Source: Candidatus Hecatellales archaeon (GTDB lineage Archaea; Thermoproteota; Bathyarchaeia; Hecatellales; Hecatellaceae). From it: DNA of 40,946 bases. The position numbers and the translations under genes are program-made. How positions within the stretch are numbered: the stretch's first letter is position 1; the number at the start of each line of letters is the position of its first letter. Location: assembly GCA_003661965.1 (NCBI GenBank), contig QMXD01000003.1:1-40946 (forward strand), written 5' to 3'. Shown here one piece after another: positions 4,778 to 34,307 of the stretch. The notes beneath the pieces are model-generated. The model ran no database searches. It was given only the letters and a program-made list of their open reading frames with translations, and had not been told where the DNA came from.

Positions 4778-6187
4778 CTAGGATTCTTTTTTCTCCTTAT
4801 ATTTTGGATGATACTTCTTGATGTAGACAGGGTCTATACGTTTAAGCTCTGTTTCAGGAAACATCGCCAAAAGATTCCAACCTATATCCAAGGTTTTTTC
4901 AATATCCCTATCCTCGTAGGGACCCTGATTAATAAACTCTCTCTCATATCTGTCTGCAAACTCAAGGTAGAGTCTGTCTCTCTCTGTTAAGGCTTCCTCA
5001 CCAATAACAGCCACAAGCTCTCTTAGGCTTCTCCCCTCAGCATAAGCATAGTAAAGCTGGTCTGCAACATACCTATGCTCCTCTCTTGTTTTACCCTTAC
5101 CTATACCCTCATTCATAAGCCTTGAAAGACTTGGTAAAACGTTAATCGGAGGATAAATTCCCTTCATGTGGAGAGCTCTCTCAACATAGATTTGCCCCTC
5201 TGTAATATATCCTGTTAGGTCTGGAATCGGATGGGTTATATCGTCGTGAGGCATGGTTAGGATGGGTATCTGGGTTACTGAACCCTTCCTCCCATGGATT
5301 CTTCCAGCCCTCTCATAGATTGTTGCTAAGTCTGTATACATGTATCCAGGGTAGCCTCTTCTTCCAGGAACCTCTTCTCTTGCAGCTGAAATTTCTCTTA
5401 GGGCTTCAGCATAGTTAGTCATGTCTGTCAAGATTACTAGGATGTGGAGGTCGTAGTCGAAAGCCAAAAATTCAGCAGCGGTTAATGCAAGTCTTGGGGT
5501 AATAAGCCTCTCAATAGCAGGGTCGTCAGCCAAATTAATAAACATGACAACCCTATCCATAGCACCTCTCTTTTCAAAGTCTTCTCTAAAGAATCTTGCC
5601 TCATCAGAGGTAATCCCCATAGCTGCAAAAACAACAGCAAACTCCTCCTCTTTACCTAAAACTTTAGCCTGTCTTGCTATTTGTGCAGCTATAAGGTTGT
5701 GGGGTAAACCTGAACCTGAAAACAGGGGTAGTTTTTGTCCTCTAACAAGCGTATTCATCCCATCTATAGCTGAAATTCCTGTCTGGATGAATTCTGATGG
5801 GTGGGCTCTAGAATATGGGTTTATTGGAGCACCATGAATATCTCTTTCATCCTCAGGTATTATTTCAGGTCCTCCATCGATGGGTTTACCGCTTCCATCA
5901 AAAATTCTTCCTATAATGTCTAGGGAGACAGGAAACTTTAGGGTGTCTCCAGTAAACCTTGTAACGGTTTTTGTAACATCTAAACCTGAGGTTCCCTCAA
6001 AAACCTGAACTATAGCCCTCTTCTCATCAACCTCTAAAACCTGCCCTGTTCTTTCCTCTCCTGTCGGTGTTCTAATTTTTACAACCTCACCATAGGAAAT
6101 ACCTGTTGTTCTTTCAACAAAAAGTAGTGGTCCTGCTATCTCTTTTACGGTTGAATATTCTTTTCCAGTTAAAATTGTTTTACTCAA
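4778..6187 (-). CDS. atpB: A/V-type ATP synthase subunit B
   Basis: [50 protein letters not shown]. Confidence 0.98.
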
Positions 6188-6193
6188 AATTTC

Positions 6194-7966
6194 TCATCTC
6201 CTAAGGGTTGTATAAAGCGAGTTAAACTGTTCACTAATTTTAGACTCAATCTCCTTACAAACTTTTACAGCCTCATCTAATGGTGCAAGCTTCATTCTTG
6301 CAATATCCTCTAAAACTGGTAGGGATAGGATGCTTTTAATTGGAACACCACGTTCAACAGCCTTCCCCATCTCCTCATAAAACCTGATAATAACCCTAAG
6401 CATACTGTAACATTTTTCTATTGAACAGTAGGTGTCAACAGGATGGTAGGCACTCTGCATTAAAAAGTCTTCCCTAATCATTCTTGCAGCCTCCAAAATT
6501 ACTCTTTGACTTTCGGATAGGGCATCAGGACCTACAAGCCTAACTATCTCCTGTAACTCCTCCTCTCTTTGAAGCAGCCATAAGGCTTTTCCTCTAAGCT
6601 CAAGAAACTCTGGGTTAACGTTTCTCCTATACCATTCCTCTAAGCTTTCAGAGTAGAGGGAATAGCTTGTAAGCCAGTTTATAGCTGGGAAATGTCTTTT
6701 CTCAGCTAAAGTTTTATCCAAACCCCAGAAAACCTTAATGATTCTTAGGGTGTTTTGGGTTACAGGCTCAGAAAAGTCTGCTCCTGGAGGTGAAACAGCA
6801 CCAACAACACTAACAGAACCTATTCTCTCAGTTGAACCTAAAGTTAAAACTCTTCCAGCCCTCTCATAAAACTCTGAAAGACGTGAGGCTAGATAGGCTG
6901 GATAACCCTCCTCACCAGGCATCTCCTCAAGTCTACCTGAAATTTCTCTTAGGGCTTCAGCCCAACGTGAGGTTGAATCTGCCATTAAGGCTACATCATA
7001 ACCCATATCCCTAAAATACTCACCCATAGTAATACCTGTATAAATACTTGCCTCCCTAGCTGCAATAGGCATGTTTGAAGTGTTTGCAACTAGAATTGTT
7101 CTATCCATTAACGGGTAGCCAGACCTAGGGTCTTTAAGCTTCGGAAACCTTTCAAGAACCTCAGCCATCTCATTTCCTCTTTCACCACAACCAACATAAA
7201 TAACAACGTTAGCATCAGCCCACTGAGCAAGCTGATGAAGCATAACAGTTTTACCTGTCCCAAAACCTCCAGGAATTGCTCCCTGTCCACCCTTAACCAT
7301 AGGGAAAAACGTGTCAAATATTCTTTGACCAGTTAAAAGTGGTGTGTCTGGTGGAAGCTTAACCTTATAGGGTCTCCCCCTTCTAACAGGCCATGTTTGA
7401 ACCATTTTAAGTTTAACATCACCAGCCTCAGTTTCAACAGTTGCAATTTCATCCATTATCGTATATTTGCCTTCCTTAACAATGTCTTTAATGGTACCGT
7501 GAACATCAGGTGGAACAAGAATCCTATGGGTTACAAGTGGTGTTTCAGGAACAGTTCCAAGGATATCTCCACCAACAACCCTATCCCCAACCTTTACGGA
7601 GGGGGTAAAATCCCATTTTTTATCCCTATCTAAAGATGGGATAGCAAAACCACGTTTAAAGAACGGTCCAATAAGTTCTTGAGTTTTAGGTAAGGGTCTT
7701 TGAATACCATCATAGGTTTGACCAATAATACCTGGGCCAAGCTCAACAGATAAAGGTCTACCTGTTCTTTCAACAGGTTCTCCAGGTTTAAGTCCTGCTG
7801 TCTCCTCGTAAACCTGAATTATTGCTTTATTCCCCTCAATTTTAATAATTTCACCAACAAGTTTTTCTTCTCCAACTCTAACAAGCTCATACATTTGGCT
7901 TCCAGTCATGTTGTCTGCGGTAACAGCAGGCCCTGAAACTCTAACTATTCTCCCTTTAGCCTCCAA
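6194..7966 (-). CDS. atpA: A/V-type ATP synthase subunit A (no intein)
   Basis: GGFGTGKT P-loop, [21 protein letters not shown]; SD GGTGG 6 nt before TTG. Confidence 0.98.
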
Positions 7967-8068
7967 ATTTTACCACCTAACCTTTCATGTTTCGTTTTAA
8001 CCCTTTTTCTGTCTGAAAATACTAGAAAATTATAGGTATTAAAGGTTTATCGTTAGCTAACAAAAAAT

Positions 8069-31132: not shown

Positions 31133-31165
31133 GTAATACTTTTTGGGTAAATAGTAATATTTAAA
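31133..31165 (+). promoter_or_regulatory. Promoter/operator of the FmdE-domain gene (GTAATAC-N14-GTAATAT abutting TTTAAA)
   Basis: AAATAGTAATATTTA at 31149-31163, identical to 34291-34277 on the minus strand; ends 49 nt before the start codon. Confidence 0.65.
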
Positions 31166-31211: not shown

Positions 31212-32597
31212 TTGCCCAAAACCATGAGGTCTAAAATTTTTGCTATAACACCTATGCTTATTTTGTTTTTATCGGTGGTTTGGATAGGGGTTGCAAATGC
31301 CCAACAAAGCGTTGTTGATGAGTATCCTGAACTTAAACCTTTGACCAACTTTGTTGGTGAAGAAAACCTGTCAGTTCTGCATTTAGCTGGGTTTAAAGCA
31401 GCAAAAAGGGCTATGGCTGAGCTGGGATTTAAAAAAGGAGATGCCAACATTCTAGCCTTAACCGATGCTGGATACATAGCCAAAATAGGTGAATATACAA
31501 CAGAGAAAGCTTTAGATGGTGTCATGTTAACCTCAGGATGCTCTAGGGGTAAGGGAAACCTTGTAAACGTGCATAAACCATACAATTCTCCGTTATGGTT
31601 TGCATTCTTCGACAAAAAAAGCAAAAACTGTGTTTATCTTGAGGTAAACAGTAACCTACTAAAAACTTATCTAGACAAAGAAAAGGAGGCTAAAGAATCC
31701 ACTCTAAAAGACTTTATGAAGCTTAAAGATGAACAGATATTTACCAAGATTGCTGTTGAAAACATAGACGCAAAAAAACTACTAAAGAATCCTGAAGACT
31801 GGCAGAAAAAAATGGTGGCTAAGGTTTTTGGTGGAAACGAGTTTAGCCTAATAACCATCTGCAATGTCTGGGCTTATAAAGGGCTACCAAACGACTTCCT
31901 AAAAGCAGTTGAACTCCACGACCACATATGTCCTGGACTTACAAGCGGCTACCTAATAGCCAAATACATAGAAAAAAACTTTCCAACAAAATCTCCAAGA
32001 TACGAGTATACAGTAATAGCATGTCCACCATGGTGTAAAGATGATGTTATAATCCAATACTTTGAAACAAATGTTGGACATAAGCATATGTTTGTAAAAT
32101 GGTTAACAAAGGAACAGTCAGAAGAACTTAAAAAACACCTACCTGAAAACCTCAAAAGCAAGGATGTGGCTGAAATTGTTATCAGATGGGAAAAAGGTGC
32201 TTCAAAAGGTGAGGGTATAGTCATCGGTTTTGACTGGAATAAGGCTGTTAAGCTTTGTGGCATAAAACGTTCATGGTTTAAAGACTTTAAAACTTACAGG
32301 TGGTGGTGGACTAGACTTAAAATGGATTTATGGATGATGGACTATATAGATAAGCCTGAAGAACTCGTGGCAACAATCAAAACGTTTAACGTGAACAGTA
32401 CAAGCGAAATCTGGAAGCTTGCATCAGCAGGGGTAAATCCGTTAGCTGAGCTTGGGCTAACACCAAAACCAACACCAACCCTCGTAGAGAAGACTGTTGA
32501 AGTTATCCCGTTATGGGTTTACATAACCATAGGAGTTTTAATAGCCATAATCATTGTAATGGTCTGCCTTTACACCCTAAAACTAAGAAAAACATAG
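31212..32597 (+). CDS. Secreted, C-terminally membrane-anchored FmdE-domain (putative metal-binding) protein
   Basis: SD GAGGTG plus TTG; N-terminal hydrophobic signal ending ANA-QQ; ELHDHICPGLTSG and CPPWCKDD FmdE motifs; PKPTPT linker, TM helix, basic tail. Confidence 0.78.
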   Translation: MPKTMRSKIFAITPMLILFLSVVWIGVANAQQSVVDEYPELKPLTNFVGEENLSVLHLAGFKAAKRAMAELGFKKGDANILALTDAGYIAKIGEYTTEKALDGVMLTSGCSRGKGNLVNVHKPYNSPLWFAFFDKKSKNCVYLEVNSNLLKTYLDKEKEAKESTLKDFMKLKDEQIFTKIAVENIDAKKLLKNPEDWQKKMVAKVFGGNEFSLITICNVWAYKGLPNDFLKAVELHDHICPGLTSGYLIAKYIEKNFPTKSPRYEYTVIACPPWCKDDVIIQYFETNVGHKHMFVKWLTKEQSEELKKHLPENLKSKDVAEIVIRWEKGASKGEGIVIGFDWNKAVKLCGIKRSWFKDFKTYRWWWTRLKMDLWMMDYIDKPEELVATIKTFNVNSTSEIWKLASAGVNPLAELGLTPKPTPTLVEKTVEVIPLWVYITIGVLIAIIIVMVCLYTLKLRKT

Positions 32598-32624: not shown

Positions 32625-33194
32625 CTAAGATTGGCATATCTTGGTTTTCTTGGTTAACACTAAAACTATAACTGCTCCAACAACCCCAGACATAAAAGCT
32701 ATAGCCAAATAAAGGGGTAAAAACCTAGTTGAAGGCCATACGTGTGTATAAAAACCTATCGCCAACCATGTAACCGTTAAACATGATAGGTTTGCAATCC
32801 CTCCACCTATACCTAGCCTTGCAAAGCTTAGTTTAGGTTTACATGAAAACTCAATCATTAAACCCATAACCAAGAATGCTATTACCCCATAAACGCCAAA
32901 CCACGGTGGGTCTACAACCCCATACCACGGAGAAACAAGCATACAAAAGGCAGGTATAAGTATGGCTGTAGATACACCAGAAAGTTTTTTACACCCGGTT
33001 ATTAAGTGAGCTAACGTAACCCATAAAACAAAAATAAATCCACCAAAAAGTATCATCCCTCCAGCAGGACCAAAAATACCTAAACTGTTTAAGATGGGTC
33101 TCATAGGAATGCTTAGGTTTATTGTGGCGCTTACCCCTGCACAAACAAAAATTGTTAAAAGGTTTTTTATGGTAGAAGAATCATTGGTAGGCAT
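32625..33194 (-). CDS. Polytopic membrane protein (about 6 TM, 189 aa), ECF S-component-like
   Basis: ATG 33194 lies 10 nt after the rSAM stop (ORF track uses 33254); hydrophobic Gly-rich helices; size typical of S-components. Confidence 0.7.
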   Translation of the reverse strand: MPTNDSSTIKNLLTIFVCAGVSATINLSIPMRPILNSLGIFGPAGGMILFGGFIFVLWVTLAHLITGCKKLSGVSTAILIPAFCMLVSPWYGVVDPPWFGVYGVIAFLVMGLMIEFSCKPKLSFARLGIGGGIANLSCLTVTWLAIGFYTHVWPSTRFLPLYLAIAFMSGVVGAVIVLVLTKKTKICQS

Positions 33195-33204
33195 TTTTCT
33201 CAGC

Positions 33205-34041
33205 CTATATGATACACTTGCTACACACGGTATGCTTACCCATGTTTTTAACAAAGTCTTTGTAAGGTTGAGATTTTACTATATCTTTAACCTTGGCTGA
33301 TAGTGCATCTGCAAGATATTCCTTGGGTAGGAAGCAGCATGGGGTAACCTTAAAATCCCATGTTATATAGATACCATATTTAACCACCCTACAAGGATTT
33401 GTATGTTTACTTGGAAGAAATGTTTGAAGCTTAAGTTTTTTAGCTAAAGTTTTAATCTCACCAAAAAGTTTAGCTTCCTTTTCCTCATCTAAAGCTTTAA
33501 AGCTTGGGTTATGCTGATTAAACAGCCTATGAAGATTTATTGCTTCAACTCCCAACATTGAAGCTTCCTCAACAATTTTAGGTATCTCGTCAACGTTACC
33601 CTCATAAACTGTTATGTCCAGAAAGATCTTTGGGTCTTTAAGTTTAAACTCTTTTTTTAGCTTAGTTGTAAGCAAAATTTTTTCTGAGACTTTTTCCAGC
33701 CTTTTAAGCCTATAAACTCCAAATGCAAACTCTTTTAGACCAGAAGAAAAAAGTTTTCTTATTTTTTTCTCGTCTAGAAGGGTTCCGTTTGTTATTAAGC
33801 TTGTTGTAATTTTTCTTGAAGAGGCGTAGGCTATCATATCGTATATTTGGTTGTGGAGTAAGGGTTCACCCCAGCCATGAAAACCAATATAGGTTGGATG
33901 GTTTAGGTTTAAAAGTTTCTTAAACCCATTAAAATCCATAAAACCTATAGGTCTATTAAGCCAACTACGCATACAAATTTCACAGTTAAGGTTACAGGCT
34001 GTTGTAGGTTCAACCTGGAAGAACGGTTTACTGCCAAACAT
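33205..34041 (-). CDS. Radical SAM protein with C-terminal SPASM/twitch-type cysteines
   Basis: CNLNCEIC (CxxxCxxC), GWGEPLLH, ITNGTLL, then C...TPCCF...CSKC. Confidence 0.92.
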   Translation of the reverse strand: MFGSKPFFQVEPTTACNLNCEICMRSWLNRPIGFMDFNGFKKLLNLNHPTYIGFHGWGEPLLHNQIYDMIAYASSRKITTSLITNGTLLDEKKIRKLFSSGLKEFAFGVYRLKRLEKVSEKILLTTKLKKEFKLKDPKIFLDITVYEGNVDEIPKIVEEASMLGVEAINLHRLFNQHNPSFKALDEEKEAKLFGEIKTLAKKLKLQTFLPSKHTNPCRVVKYGIYITWDFKVTPCCFLPKEYLADALSAKVKDIVKSQPYKDFVKNMGKHTVCSKCII

Positions 34042-34063: not shown

Positions 34064-34228
34064 TTAGAAGCTTCTTTTTAATAATCCAAGAATTTTTGAA
34101 GCTATTTTTTCTCTTAGACCTGTTAAGATTACCCCGCCAATAACAGTTAAACCTACAATTTGACTCGTTATGACTGCTTGAAGAACTGTAGCCGTTGAAG
34201 CAGTATTAACCGCTATAGGTGTGCACAA
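34064..34228 (-). CDS. Unannotated 54-aa peptide MCTPIAVNTASTATVLQAVITSQIVGLTVIGGVILTGLREKIASKILGLLKRSF
   Basis: Only start codon in its frame (TTG), GGGAGG SD 9 nt upstream, promoter motif at the same 49-nt offset as in the FmdE gene, stop 22 nt before the rSAM ATG. Confidence 0.7.
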   Translation of the reverse strand: MCTPIAVNTASTATVLQAVITSQIVGLTVIGGVILTGLREKIASKILGLLKRSF

Positions 34229-34272
34229 GTTCCCCTTCCTCCCAAGTCTTGAGAATAGTATGGTTGTTAAAA

Positions 34273-34307
34273 TAAATAAATATTACTATTTGACACTGTT
34301 ATCTTAC
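34273..34307 (-). promoter_or_regulatory. Promoter/operator of the peptide-rSAM-membrane operon (GTAAGAT-N14-GTAATAT abutting TTTATTTA)
   Basis: 15-bp identity and the same 21-bp half-site spacing as 31133-31163. Confidence 0.65.

What the first reader, a model, noticed from the sequence alone, without database searches (positions are those of the whole stretch)
34064..34228. Hidden 54-aa peptide gene directly upstream of the radical SAM/twitch enzyme
It is below the ORF-track cutoff and has a TTG start. MCTPIAVNTASTATVLQAVITSQIVGLTVIGGVILTGLREKIASKILGLLKRSF has one Cys at position 2, a Thr/Ser/Ala-rich N-half, a hydrophobic GLTVIGGVILTG core and a cationic amphipathic tail. Support: a strong SD, the only start in frame, and promoter spacing identical to the FmdE gene. 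It could be a RiPP precursor (thioether or epimerisation substrate, bacteriocin-like amphipathic core) or a small membrane subunit presenting an N-terminal Cys metal ligand.
Basis: partly seen in the sequence, partly recalled or inferred. Interest (0 to 1): 0.8.

Follow-up and report, generated by a model that had tools for sequence, protein, structure and literature searches.

The report
Hidden membrane peptide with radical-SAM partner
The 54-codon reading frame is a real gene that gene callers missed: it encodes a tiny membrane-anchored peptide starting Met-Cys-x-Pro. The same peptide sits in front of the same radical-SAM enzyme in nearly all of 80 related loci from archaea and bacteria, inside a cassette that looks like an undescribed, metal-regulated trace-metal uptake system.

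Summary
The ORF exists as described, on the minus strand (34228..34064). It has a TTG start, GGAGG 9 nt upstream and no other in-frame start. Its length alone proves nothing; conservation does.

- **Co-occurrence:** among 401 genomes of the same class, the peptide and the orthologous radical-SAM (rSAM) enzyme occur in exactly the same 5.
- **Wider spread:** across 80 loci holding this enzyme (Bathyarchaeia, ANME-1, Methanosarcinales, Archaeoglobi, Thermoproteota, Dehalococcoidia, Desulfobacterota and others), 77 encode a small protein starting M-C-x-P. In 74 it lies directly upstream of the enzyme.
- **Peptide features:** Cys2 is invariant (77/77). The rest is one membrane helix plus a basic tail, which predicts N-terminus out, C-terminus in. 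dN/dS is about 0.2.
- **Enzyme:** a compact twitch-type rSAM with one auxiliary cluster and no peptide-recognition (RRE) domain.
- **Recurrent partners:** a membrane protein with an ECF S-component fold, the exported FmdE-domain protein and a membrane TPR protein. Fur, NikR, DtxR, TonB-receptor and CbiM/CbiQ genes lie nearby.
- **Shared promoter elements:** the peptide and FmdE genes share them, both in this window and in bacterial loci.

Best reading: a leaderless, membrane-anchored rSAM substrate working in metal (possibly Ni/Co) acquisition. The chemistry is unknown. I found no description in Pfam, NCBIfam or the papers searched.

The parts
34064..34228 (-). Gene for a 54-aa peptide with a TTG start. 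Invariant N-terminal M-C-x-P motif, one TM helix (about residues 18-36) and a basic C-terminal tail.
   Evidence: ORF and sequence; homologues; dN/dS about 0.2; motif counts and charge bias.
34238..34242 (-). Shine-Dalgarno GGAGG, 9 nt before the TTG.
   Evidence: GGAGG is kept in the close relatives L131, L132 and L136. AGGAGG-like sites precede the ATG in nearly all of 26 bacterial loci.
34277..34291 (-). Promoter/operator 15-mer AAATAGTAATATTTA (contains a TATA-like ATATTTA), ending 48 nt upstream of the peptide start.
   Evidence: Conserved in L131 and L136.
33205..34041 (-). Radical SAM enzyme, 278 aa. CxxxCxxC at residues 16-23, a C-terminal twitch/SPASM-type domain with four conserved Cys (217, 235, 273, 276), and no RRE domain.
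   Evidence: Pfam. NCBIfam. BtrN is the best PDB sequence hit; invariant Cys. AF2 pLDDT 94; fold neighbours BlsE, SkfB, SuiB, BtrN, PqqE, anSME.
32625..33194 (-). Six-helix membrane protein, 189 aa, with an ECF S-component fold. The true start is probably the ATG at 33194, 10 nt after the rSAM stop, not the TTG at 33254.
   Evidence: alignments. AF2 pLDDT 88. Foldseek top hits are S-components 5edl, 3rlb, RibU and 4huq (TM 0.55-0.68). A19xxxA23 in TM1; a gene caller uses the equivalent ATG in a relative.
31212..32597 (+). Exported, C-terminally anchored FmdE-domain protein, 461 aa. H236-x-H238-x-C240 and C275-K-D-D are invariant. It lies convergent to the peptide operon.
   Evidence: Pfam FmdE; present in 42 of 81 loci beside the peptide-rSAM pair; invariant residues.
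31149..31163 (+). Second copy of the 15-mer AAATAGTAATATTTA, ending 48 nt upstream of the FmdE gene's TTG.
   Evidence: Also present upstream of the FmdE gene in relative L136.

Best explanation
The ORF is a genuine, translated gene for a leaderless single-pass membrane peptide. By the positive-inside rule its N-terminus faces outside and its basic tail faces the cytoplasm.

The invariant start Met-Cys-x-Pro-(I/V)-(S/A/T)-Val is the dedicated substrate, or at least the obligate partner, of the twitch-type radical SAM enzyme encoded 22 nt downstream. That enzyme would act in the cytoplasm, on or next to Cys2, before the short uncharged N-tail is moved across the membrane.

The matured peptide then works at the outer face of the membrane with two other products of the cassette: the ECF S-component-like protein and the exported FmdE-domain protein (H-x-H-x-C / C-K-D-D site). 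In other lineages a membrane TPR protein and TonB-dependent receptors take part. Together they form a metal-regulated system for acquiring a scarce trace metal, nickel or cobalt being the best guess.

Shown: gene reality, peptide-rSAM coupling, cassette composition, shared cis-elements, folds.
Inferred: that the peptide is the rSAM substrate, the topology, the metal role and the identity of the metal.

My odds:
- real gene: 0.97
- functional pair with the rSAM: 0.9
- peptide is the rSAM substrate: 0.6
- metal acquisition or homeostasis: 0.55
- Ni/Co specifically: 0.3
For: Coupling.
- The peptide profile and the rSAM orthologue (E<1e-90) are found in the same 5 of 401 class genomes and nowhere else.
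- 77 of 80 rSAM loci from many archaeal and bacterial phyla carry an M-C-x-P small ORF; in 74 it lies within about 320 nt upstream.
- The two loci without it are cut short at the side where their nearest relatives carry it.
- Peptide and rSAM identities co-vary (Mantel r=0.74, 0 of 999 permutations reach it), and peptide subtypes follow rSAM clades.

Gene reality.
- dN/dS is 0.18-0.23.
- TTG start and SD are kept in relatives.
- 61 clusters of called proteins of 37-73 aa, almost all matching from residue 1.
- C2 77/77, P4 75/77, V7 69/77.

Topology. K+R count is 23 before the helix and 340 after it; only 8 charged residues occur in 770 N-terminal positions.

Enzyme. rSAM + SPASM Pfam hits. One four-Cys auxiliary site. 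Fold neighbours include the peptide-modifying SkfB, SuiB, PqqE, anSME and EpeE.

Metal theme.
- The membrane protein has an S-component fold.
- An EcfT/CbiQ gene is present elsewhere in all five class genomes that carry the cassette.
- The FmdE protein has an invariant His/Cys site.
- Neighbours include Fur, NikR, DtxR-like, TonB receptors, ExbB, CbiM/CbiQ/DUF4198, ABC-3 and CbiX.
- One homologue ends in HEHEHDHCC.

Co-regulation.
- An identical 15-mer sits upstream of the peptide and FmdE genes here and in a relative.
- In bacterial loci a TGCAAT-N4-TGCAAT element follows a sigma-70-like promoter in front of the peptide gene. It recurs before the FmdE and TPR genes, and in two of these loci beside a Fur-family gene.
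Against:
- The enzyme lacks an RRE. Its best sequence hits are small-molecule enzymes (BtrN, BlsE) or cofactor enzymes (TIGR04317, NirJ/AhbD), so it might not act on the peptide.
- If the conserved N-terminus ends up outside the cell, a cytoplasmic enzyme must act before insertion. This is assumed, not shown.
- The metal link rests on neighbourhood, with no background statistics. Many flanking genes are unrelated housekeeping genes.
- No riboswitch (NiCo, cobalamin, Moco) was found in 40 loci.
- The S-component-like protein has no conserved His and no hit in Pfam or NCBIfam.
- The window itself has no metal regulator or ECF module next to the cassette.
- Most sequences come from MAGs, so taxonomic labels and contig ends are uncertain.
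Confidence: 0.55

Rival explanations
1. The peptide is an unmodified small subunit, or a membrane tether, of a membrane complex. The rSAM would act on something else: a small-molecule chelator or cofactor, or a residue of the FmdE or TPR protein.
For: Best sequence matches of the rSAM are small-molecule and cofactor enzymes: BtrN, BlsE, TIGR04317, NirJ/AhbD. It has no RRE. The peptide keeps a TM helix in all homologues. Small accessory subunits such as CbiN exist in Ni/Co ECF transporters (established knowledge).
Against: Peptide + rSAM is the invariant core. It persists in loci without the S-component, FmdE or TPR genes, so no other conserved protein substrate exists. The conserved part of the peptide is a 7-9-residue N-terminal motif rather than the helix. 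That pattern is what an enzyme recognition or modification site looks like.
Confidence: 0.2
2. It is the precursor of a released RiPP (antimicrobial or signalling). The core lies at the N-terminus and the hydrophobic C-terminal part serves as a 'follower' that is cut off, as in bottromycin-type precursors. The membrane protein would serve export or immunity.
For: A small ORF directly before a SPASM/twitch rSAM. The core follows the initiator Met directly, as in follower-type precursors (memory). Patchy, horizontally spread distribution.
Against: No protease, C39 or ABC exporter, or other tailoring enzyme is conserved nearby. The membrane protein has the fold of importer S-components. The TM helix and the positive-inside tail are conserved. 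Metal regulators and uptake genes dominate the recurrent neighbours. The peptide shares operators with the FmdE gene.
Confidence: 0.12
3. The peptide is a sacrificial scaffold for a Cys-derived cofactor or chelator (PqqA/MftA- or methanobactin-like) that is excised after rSAM action.
For: Invariant Cys next to a SPASM/twitch enzyme. PqqE is among the fold neighbours. Metal context.
Against: No peptidase or further tailoring enzymes are conserved. It is unclear why a scaffold would keep a TM helix and a basic tail.
Confidence: 0.08
4. The ORF is a chance open frame in an AT-rich intergenic leader of the rSAM gene.
For: Short ORFs of this size are common in the window. The start is TTG. Gene callers skipped it.
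Against: Cross-domain conservation of the protein sequence, of the start position and of the SD; dN/dS about 0.2; 61 independent clusters of called proteins.
Confidence: 0.01

Closest known systems
Anaerobic sulfatase-maturating enzyme (anSME) with its Cys/Ser-x-Pro/Ala-x-Arg substrates
   Same: An rSAM of the SPASM/twitch group without an RRE that acts directly on a short Cys-x-Pro motif of a protein. anSME is a fold neighbour (TMq about 0.74). The peptide motif C-x-P is nearly invariant.
   Different: Only four conserved C-terminal Cys, enough for one auxiliary cluster; anSME has two (memory). No Arg at +4. The substrate is a 54-aa membrane peptide, not a sulfatase. anSME is not among the 25 best NCBIfam hits.
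BtrN (twitch-domain rSAM dehydrogenase; PDB 4M7T)
   Same: Best sequence match among solved structures (E 8e-8). Similar compact size. Its auxiliary-cluster Cys spacing, C-x17-C ... C-x2-C, is the same pattern as I recall for BtrN.
   Different: BtrN oxidises an aminocyclitol, not a peptide. Identity is only about 17%.
Sactipeptide and ranthipeptide maturases (SkfB, CteB/SCIFF, PapB)
   Same: SPASM/twitch rSAM enzymes encoded next to a small Cys-bearing peptide. SkfB is the second-best fold hit. A Cys2 thioether to S/T/A6-T9 is chemically possible.
   Different: Those enzymes carry an N-terminal RRE, their precursors have leaders and several Cys, and their products are released. Here there is no RRE, no leader, mostly a single Cys (42 of 77) and a TM anchor.
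CbiMNQO / NikMNQO Ni/Co ECF transporters
   Same: A membrane protein with an S-component fold plus a very small membrane partner. In CbiM/NikM the extreme N-terminus (Met1-His2) is the metal ligand (memory), which would explain why Met-Cys is fixed at positions 1-2 here. cbiM/cbiQ/DUF4198 genes directly follow the cassette in L055 and L106, and NikR lies nearby in L089.
   Different: No sequence similarity to CbiM or CbiN (no Pfam or NCBIfam hit). Those systems have no rSAM. The peptide + rSAM pair also occurs without the S-component-like gene.
NCBIfam TIGR04317 'tungsten cofactor oxidoreductase radical SAM maturase' and TIGR04311 'putative metalloenzyme maturase'
   Same: Best family-level hits of the rSAM (E 9e-31 and 2e-22). 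Both are themselves untested families proposed to mature metalloenzymes.
   Different: Scores of 107 and 80 bits lie far below the cut-offs of 380 and 400. The neighbourhoods differ.
Peptidic metallophores (methanobactins, bufferins)
   Same: Ribosomal peptides whose Cys residues are enzymatically modified for metal binding, encoded with TonB receptors and metal regulators.
   Different: Those use MbnBC/MNIO enzymes, have leader peptides and are soluble, secreted products. Here the enzyme is an rSAM and the peptide appears to stay membrane-anchored.

Membership tests
RiPP precursor peptide (generic) | Small ORF encoded next to its modifying enzyme and co-inherited with it | tested here: met
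   Same 5 of 401 genomes. 77 of 80 loci. Mantel r 0.74.
RiPP precursor peptide (generic) | Leader (or follower) region distinct from a core, removed by a protease, with the product exported | tested here: not met
   The conserved motif starts at residue 1-2, so there is no leader. No protease or exporter is among the conserved neighbours. A follower role for the helix cannot be excluded.
RiPP precursor peptide (generic) | RRE (PqqD-like) recognition domain in or beside the maturase | tested here: not met
   CxxxCxxC begins at residue 16 of a 278-aa enzyme. Only Radical_SAM and SPASM Pfam hits. No PqqD-like gene among the recurrent neighbours.
SPASM/twitch radical SAM enzymes | CxxxCxxC rSAM cluster motif plus a C-terminal Cys-ligated auxiliary cluster domain | tested here: met
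   C16/C20/C23 invariant. C217, C235 and C273 invariant, C276 at least 90%. Pfam SPASM 31.4 bits against a cut-off of 21.5. Fold hits BlsE, SkfB, SuiB, BtrN, PqqE, anSME.
anSME (anaerobic sulfatase maturase) | Full SPASM domain with two auxiliary clusters (7-8 Cys) and a substrate motif C/S-x-P/A-x-R | tested here: not met
   Only four conserved C-terminal Cys. The peptide has C-x-P but never an Arg at +4.
TIGR04317 tungsten-cofactor oxidoreductase rSAM maturase | Score at or above the curated cut-off (380 bits) | tested here: not met
   107.2 bits.
ECF transporter S-component | Six-helix S-component fold | tested here: met
   AF2 model with pLDDT 88 and pTM 0.86. Foldseek top hits are 5edl, 3rlb, 5kc0/5kc4 and 4huq, with TM 0.55-0.68 and prob 0.85-1.0, though E-values are weak at 0.04-2.
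ECF transporter S-component | AxxxA motif in helix 1 for docking on EcfT (from memory) and an ECF module available | tested here: inconclusive
   A19 is conserved in 32/36 and A23 in 23/36 sequences. An EcfT/CbiQ gene is present elsewhere in all 5 class genomes with the cassette, but not next to the cassette in this window. Docking was not tested.
ECF transporter S-component | Membership of a described S-component sequence family | tested here: not met
   No Pfam or NCBIfam hit at E<=0.1-1. Homologues are named only 'hypothetical protein'.
FmdE family (PF02663) | Pfam gathering score | tested here: met
   59.5 bits against a cut-off of 22.9. H-x-H-x-C-P-G and C-K-D-D are invariant in 27/27 sequences.

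The most novel reading that the evidence does not exclude
The cassette encodes a new kind of metal-capture device: a ribosomal peptide that is not secreted but stays anchored in the membrane. A radical-SAM enzyme would turn its N-terminal Cys (amine + thiol, capped by Pro) into a high-affinity 'hook'. The hook would receive Ni/Co, or another thiophilic trace metal, from an exported FmdE-domain protein or a TonB receptor. It would then pass the metal to an S-component-type membrane protein for import. This would be an anchored metallophore, used by ANME, methanogens, Bathyarchaeia, Dehalococcoidia and sulfate reducers in sulfidic sediments where such metals are locked up as sulfides.
Probability: 0.25. 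Interest if true: 0.85.

Novelty: new variant of a known kind. Interest (0 to 1): 0.72.

Why it matters
**Annotation.** A conserved gene family is systematically missed by gene callers. There are at least 61 peptide clusters at 50% identity and more than 400 partner-enzyme clusters at 90% identity. It is missed in organisms central to anaerobic carbon cycling: ANME-1, Methanosarcinales, Bathyarchaeia, Archaeoglobi, Dehalococcoidia and Desulfobacterota.

**Enzymology.** The system offers a minimal, RRE-less twitch rSAM with a defined peptide partner of about 50 aa. The invariant residue is Cys2, directly after the initiator Met. That substrate architecture is not described for radical-SAM peptide chemistry.

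**Physiology.** The link to an S-component-fold protein, an exported FmdE domain, Fur/NikR/DtxR regulators and Ni/Co transporter genes gives a concrete, testable hypothesis. It addresses how strict anaerobes obtain nickel or cobalt for F430, hydrogenases, CODH/ACS and corrinoids in sulfidic habitats. It would also give FmdE-domain proteins outside methanogenesis their first proposed function.

Tried and rejected
- **Family libraries:** Pfam and NCBIfam gave nothing for the peptide or the membrane protein.
- **RNA alternatives:** Rfam and ARAGORN around the locus found no RNA gene that would explain the region.
- **Riboswitch test for the transported substrate:** no Rfam family except tRNAs in 40 loci, including all the bacterial ones. 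This gives no support for a cobalamin, NiCo or Moco riboswitch.
- **FmdE protein against PDB sequences:** phmmer found no hit.
- **Literature:** seven full-text searches found no description of the cassette.
- **Weak profile hits:** hits of the peptide profile in 46 other class genomes (E 4e-4 to 0.1) lie inside long ORFs or contain stops. I treated them as hydrophobic noise.
- **Third near-copy of the 15-mer:** the copy at G000:C78 lies inside an MFS-transporter-like ORF and is probably chance.
- **L094 (Thermacetogenium):** it shows VCVPISV at the head of a fragmented TPR-like ORF. I did not count it as a peptide gene.
- **Exact 48/48-nt spacing:** it is not kept to the base in relative L136 (53 nt versus 46-49 nt). 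What is conserved is the shared element, not the exact spacing.
Full report
**1. Observation**

The ORF is on the minus strand, 34228..34064. It runs from TTG to TAA and encodes MCTPIAVNTASTATVLQAVITSQIVGLTVIGGVILTGLREKIASKILGLLKRSF.
- GGAGG lies at 34242-34238, which leaves 9 nt before the TTG.
- The TTG is the first start after the upstream stop.
- Reading the codons shows no other in-frame ATG, GTG or TTG.
- The rSAM gene starts 22 nt after the peptide's stop (34041).
- A membrane-protein gene follows. Its real start is probably the ATG at 33194, 10 nt after the rSAM stop.
- The FmdE-domain gene (31212..32597, plus strand) is convergent to this operon.

AAATAGTAATATTTA ends 48 nt before both TTG starts. 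These are the only exact copies in the 1.3-Mb assembly. No tRNA or Rfam family explains the region. A 54-codon ORF is not significant by itself in 37% G+C DNA, since one search lists dozens. The case therefore rests on comparison with other genomes.

**2. Is it a gene?**

*Same class.* A six-frame search of 40 relatives found the peptide in three other genomes, each time directly upstream of an orthologous rSAM. With a profile, 5 of 401 genomes of the class have it. The rSAM orthologue (E<1e-90) is in exactly the same 5. It is absent from a 95%-complete genome of the same genus, so the cassette is accessory.

*All prokaryote species.* A scan with the rSAM alignment returned 80 loci. They are labelled Bathyarchaeia, Hadesarchaea, Methanomethylicia, Thermoproteota, ANME-1/Methanophagales, Methanosarcinales, Archaeoglobi, Altiarchaeota, Dehalococcoidia, Desulfobacterota, Latescibacterota, Spirochaetota and others.

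*Small ORFs in those loci.* hmmsearch plus a motif scan of all six-frame ORFs found a small ORF beginning M-C-x-P in 77 of the 80 loci.
- In 74 it lies within about 320 nt upstream of the rSAM.
- In 3 ANME-type loci it lies about 2.7-3 kb downstream, beyond a TPR gene.
- The two loci without it are nearest relatives of those three. They have only about 1.3 kb or no sequence on that side.
- L094 is fragmentary.

*Family statistics.* Across 77 peptides the median length is 54 aa. Cys2 is 77/77, Pro4 75/77 and Val7 69/77.

*Called proteins.* A profile search of 1.84 billion representative proteins found 61 clusters. All are 37-73 aa, nearly all match from their own residue 1, and none is fused to another domain.

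*Close relatives.* Against two close metagenomic relatives, dN/dS is 0.18-0.23 with a third-position excess. The TTG start and SD are kept. In a relative with an 885-kb contig the ORF is intact but lies in a gap with no called gene. Bacterial versions start ATG-TG(T/C), nearly all preceded by AGGAGG-like sites.

The gene is real.

**3. The peptide**

The conserved part is the very N-terminus: M-C-(A/V/T)-P-(I/V)-(S/A/T)-V-(T/A/N)-(T/A). One hydrophobic helix follows (mean Kyte-Doolittle 1.97), often with a mid-helix S/P-Q. After it comes an N-F-(R/K) boundary and a basic tail.

Lys+Arg total 23 before the helix and 340 after it. Only 8 of 770 positions in the first ten residues are charged. 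The positive-inside rule (established knowledge) therefore predicts N-terminus out and tail in.

Subtypes follow rSAM clades:
- The window's clade (100/100 support; 7 rows from four archaeal lineages) has MC(T/A)P(I/V)A.N(T/A)A(S/N).
- Dehalococcoidia and Desulfobacterota versions add a C-x3-C.
- Thermoproteota versions add a His at position 11.
- One homologue ends in HEHEHDHCC.

Peptide and enzyme identities are correlated (Mantel r 0.74). Shared ancestry of adjacent genes contributes to that value.

**4. The enzyme**

- Pfam gives Radical_SAM plus SPASM.
- Invariant Cys are 16, 20 and 23, plus 217, 235 and 273; C276 is at least 90% conserved. That is enough for one fully ligated auxiliary cluster, a twitch-like arrangement.
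- The radical-SAM motif starts at residue 16, so there is no room for an RRE.
- The best solved relative by sequence is BtrN.
- The AF2 model (pLDDT 94) matches BlsE, SkfB, SuiB, BtrN, PqqE, anSME and EpeE with TMq 0.55-0.79. This places it in the SPASM/twitch group but does not fix the chemistry.
- The best NCBIfam hit is TIGR04317 at 107 bits against a cut-off of 380. The enzyme is not a member.
- At least 414 clusters at 90% identity exist (E<=1e-40). They are named only 'radical SAM protein'.

**5. The cassette**

I clustered all neighbouring ORFs of the 80 loci plus the window, 81 in all. Three further recurrent families emerged:

| Family | Loci (of 81) |
|---|---|
| Membrane protein downstream of the rSAM | 51 |
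| FmdE-domain protein (the same family as the window's convergent gene) | 42 |
| Membrane-anchored TPR protein of about 470 aa | 35 |

*Membrane protein.* It has no family hit. It folds confidently (pLDDT 88) into the ECF S-component fold: 5edl TM 0.68, ThiT 0.64, RibU and 4huq. It has a small-xxx-small motif in helix 1. All five class genomes with the cassette have an EcfT/CbiQ gene elsewhere.

*FmdE proteins.* They carry signal and anchor segments, and an invariant H-x-H-x-C-P-G ... C-K-D-D.

*Other neighbours.* These include Fur-family regulators, NikR, a DtxR-like repressor, TonB-dependent receptors with ExbB/ExbD/TonB, CbiM/CbiQ/DUF4198 sets directly downstream (L055, L106), ABC-3 permeases, and CbiX plus a NifH-like gene. 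In a Pfam tally of 148 neighbours the most frequent families are TonB receptors, followed by a further radical-SAM family and ABC ATPases. DUF4198, Fur and ExbB also recur.

*Architectures.* The combinations are FmdE+S-component (archaea, Dehalococcoidia, some Desulfobacterota), TPR+TonB receptor (Gram-negative bacteria) and S-component+TPR (Thermoproteota). Peptide + rSAM is the only invariant pair.

*Mobility.* In a close relative the four-gene module sits in a different genomic neighbourhood, so it moves as a unit.

**6. Co-regulation**

Besides the 15-mer shared in the window and in relative L136, I tested an earlier first-reader note from another genome, on a CAAYYAATTGCA 12-mer. The pattern occurs 11 times in 7 of my loci. 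My own estimate of the chance expectation is about 0.4. All 7 are bacterial loci of the FmdE+S-component type.
- In four of these loci the exact 12-mer lies 28-49 nt before the peptide start.
- Around it, a TGCAAT-N4-TGCAAT-like element sits just downstream of a TTGACA-N17-TAnAAT promoter in about seven loci.
- It recurs before the FmdE and TPR genes. In L066 and L121 a Fur-family gene lies alongside.

So in both domains the peptide operon and the FmdE gene appear to form one regulon, and in bacteria probably a metal-responsive one.

**7. Interpretation**

Because peptide + rSAM is the invariant core, and because what is conserved in the peptide is a short N-terminal motif, the simplest model is that the rSAM acts on that motif, at or near Cys2.

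C-x-P recalls the anSME recognition motif, and the enzyme resembles the dehydrogenase BtrN. Oxidation of Cys2 is therefore one candidate reaction. A Cys2 thioether to residues 6-9, or epimerisation, are others. None can be chosen from sequence.

The fixed Met-Cys start suggests that the free N-terminus matters, as in CbiM/NikM, where Met1-His2 ligate the metal (memory). After Met removal, Cys-Ala-Pro would offer an amine/thiolate chelate terminated by Pro.

The metal-uptake reading rests on neighbourhood, folds and regulators. The Ni/Co guess rests on a few loci and on the Ni/Co-hungry lifestyles of the carriers. These steps are inferences.

The rivals are listed with odds in their own section: an unmodified subunit with the rSAM acting elsewhere; a released RiPP with a follower; a cofactor scaffold.

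**8. Novelty**

No family model, protein name or paper searched describes the peptide, the membrane protein or the cassette. It belongs to the broad known kind 'rSAM enzyme with a small peptide partner'. It differs in four ways: the peptide is leaderless, it is membrane-anchored, the enzyme is RRE-independent, and the pair is embedded in an uptake-type, metal-regulated cassette.

**Limits**
- All relatives are MAG or metagenome sequences.
- There is no complex modelling.
- Neighbourhood enrichment was not tested against a background.

Noticed in passing
window 33194-33254: The mechanical ORF for the membrane protein starts at the TTG at 33254 and overlaps the rSAM gene by 50 nt. Alignment with orthologues, and gene calls in relatives, indicate that the true start is the ATG at 33194, 10 nt after the rSAM stop.
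   Followed up: yes
L136 (885-kb contig of a close relative), 4967-8019: The same four-gene module (peptide, rSAM, S-component-like, FmdE) lies between a glycosyltransferase/TreT block and the eIF2-gamma gene. This is a different neighbourhood from the window (dCTP deaminase / KsgA side), so the module is mobile within the lineage.
   Followed up: partly
L081+L096 (ANME-1 GoMg1); L093+L122 (Methanophagales AUK217): Single ANME-1 genomes carry two or three paralogous peptide-rSAM sets from different rSAM clades, with different peptide subtypes (MCAPITVAAVGG..., MCAPVSVSAATVGG..., MCAPVAVTAGGALTTW...). This hints at several specificities per cell.
   Followed up: partly
L055 263-8775 (Methanosarcinales MAG): The cassette lies between a NifH-family gene plus CbiX-type chelatase (a pair reminiscent of F430 biosynthesis genes CfbC/CfbA; memory) and a DUF4198-CbiM-CbiQ transporter set.
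   Followed up: partly
L107 3390-3563 (-), L123 3412-3693 (-), and two further Thermoproteota loci: A second, divergent small ORF starting MCTPVYVTVKTAS..., also with a TM helix and a basic tail, is encoded divergently just upstream of the main peptide gene.
   Followed up: no
P0069: One family member carries a C-terminal HEHEHDHCC tail on the predicted cytoplasmic side, which looks like a metal-binding extension.
   Followed up: no
L073 3216-4154 (-), and similar genes in L079, L084 and L136 9690-10670: A second radical SAM gene (Radical_SAM + Fer4_12) recurs within a few kb of the cassette in ANME-1 and in the window's close relative. It accounts for 6 of the 148 neighbours tallied.
   Followed up: no
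L002 1941-2789 (G010, Hecatellales): There, the gene divergent from the peptide gene is a molybdopterin oxidoreductase (Fe4S4 + Molybdopterin domains), not the dCTP deaminase seen in the window.
   Followed up: no
G000:C9:12875-13444: The only EcfT/CbiQ match in the window's own genome is read through one TAG and one TAA. It may be a pseudogene, an assembly error or an alignment artefact.
   Followed up: no
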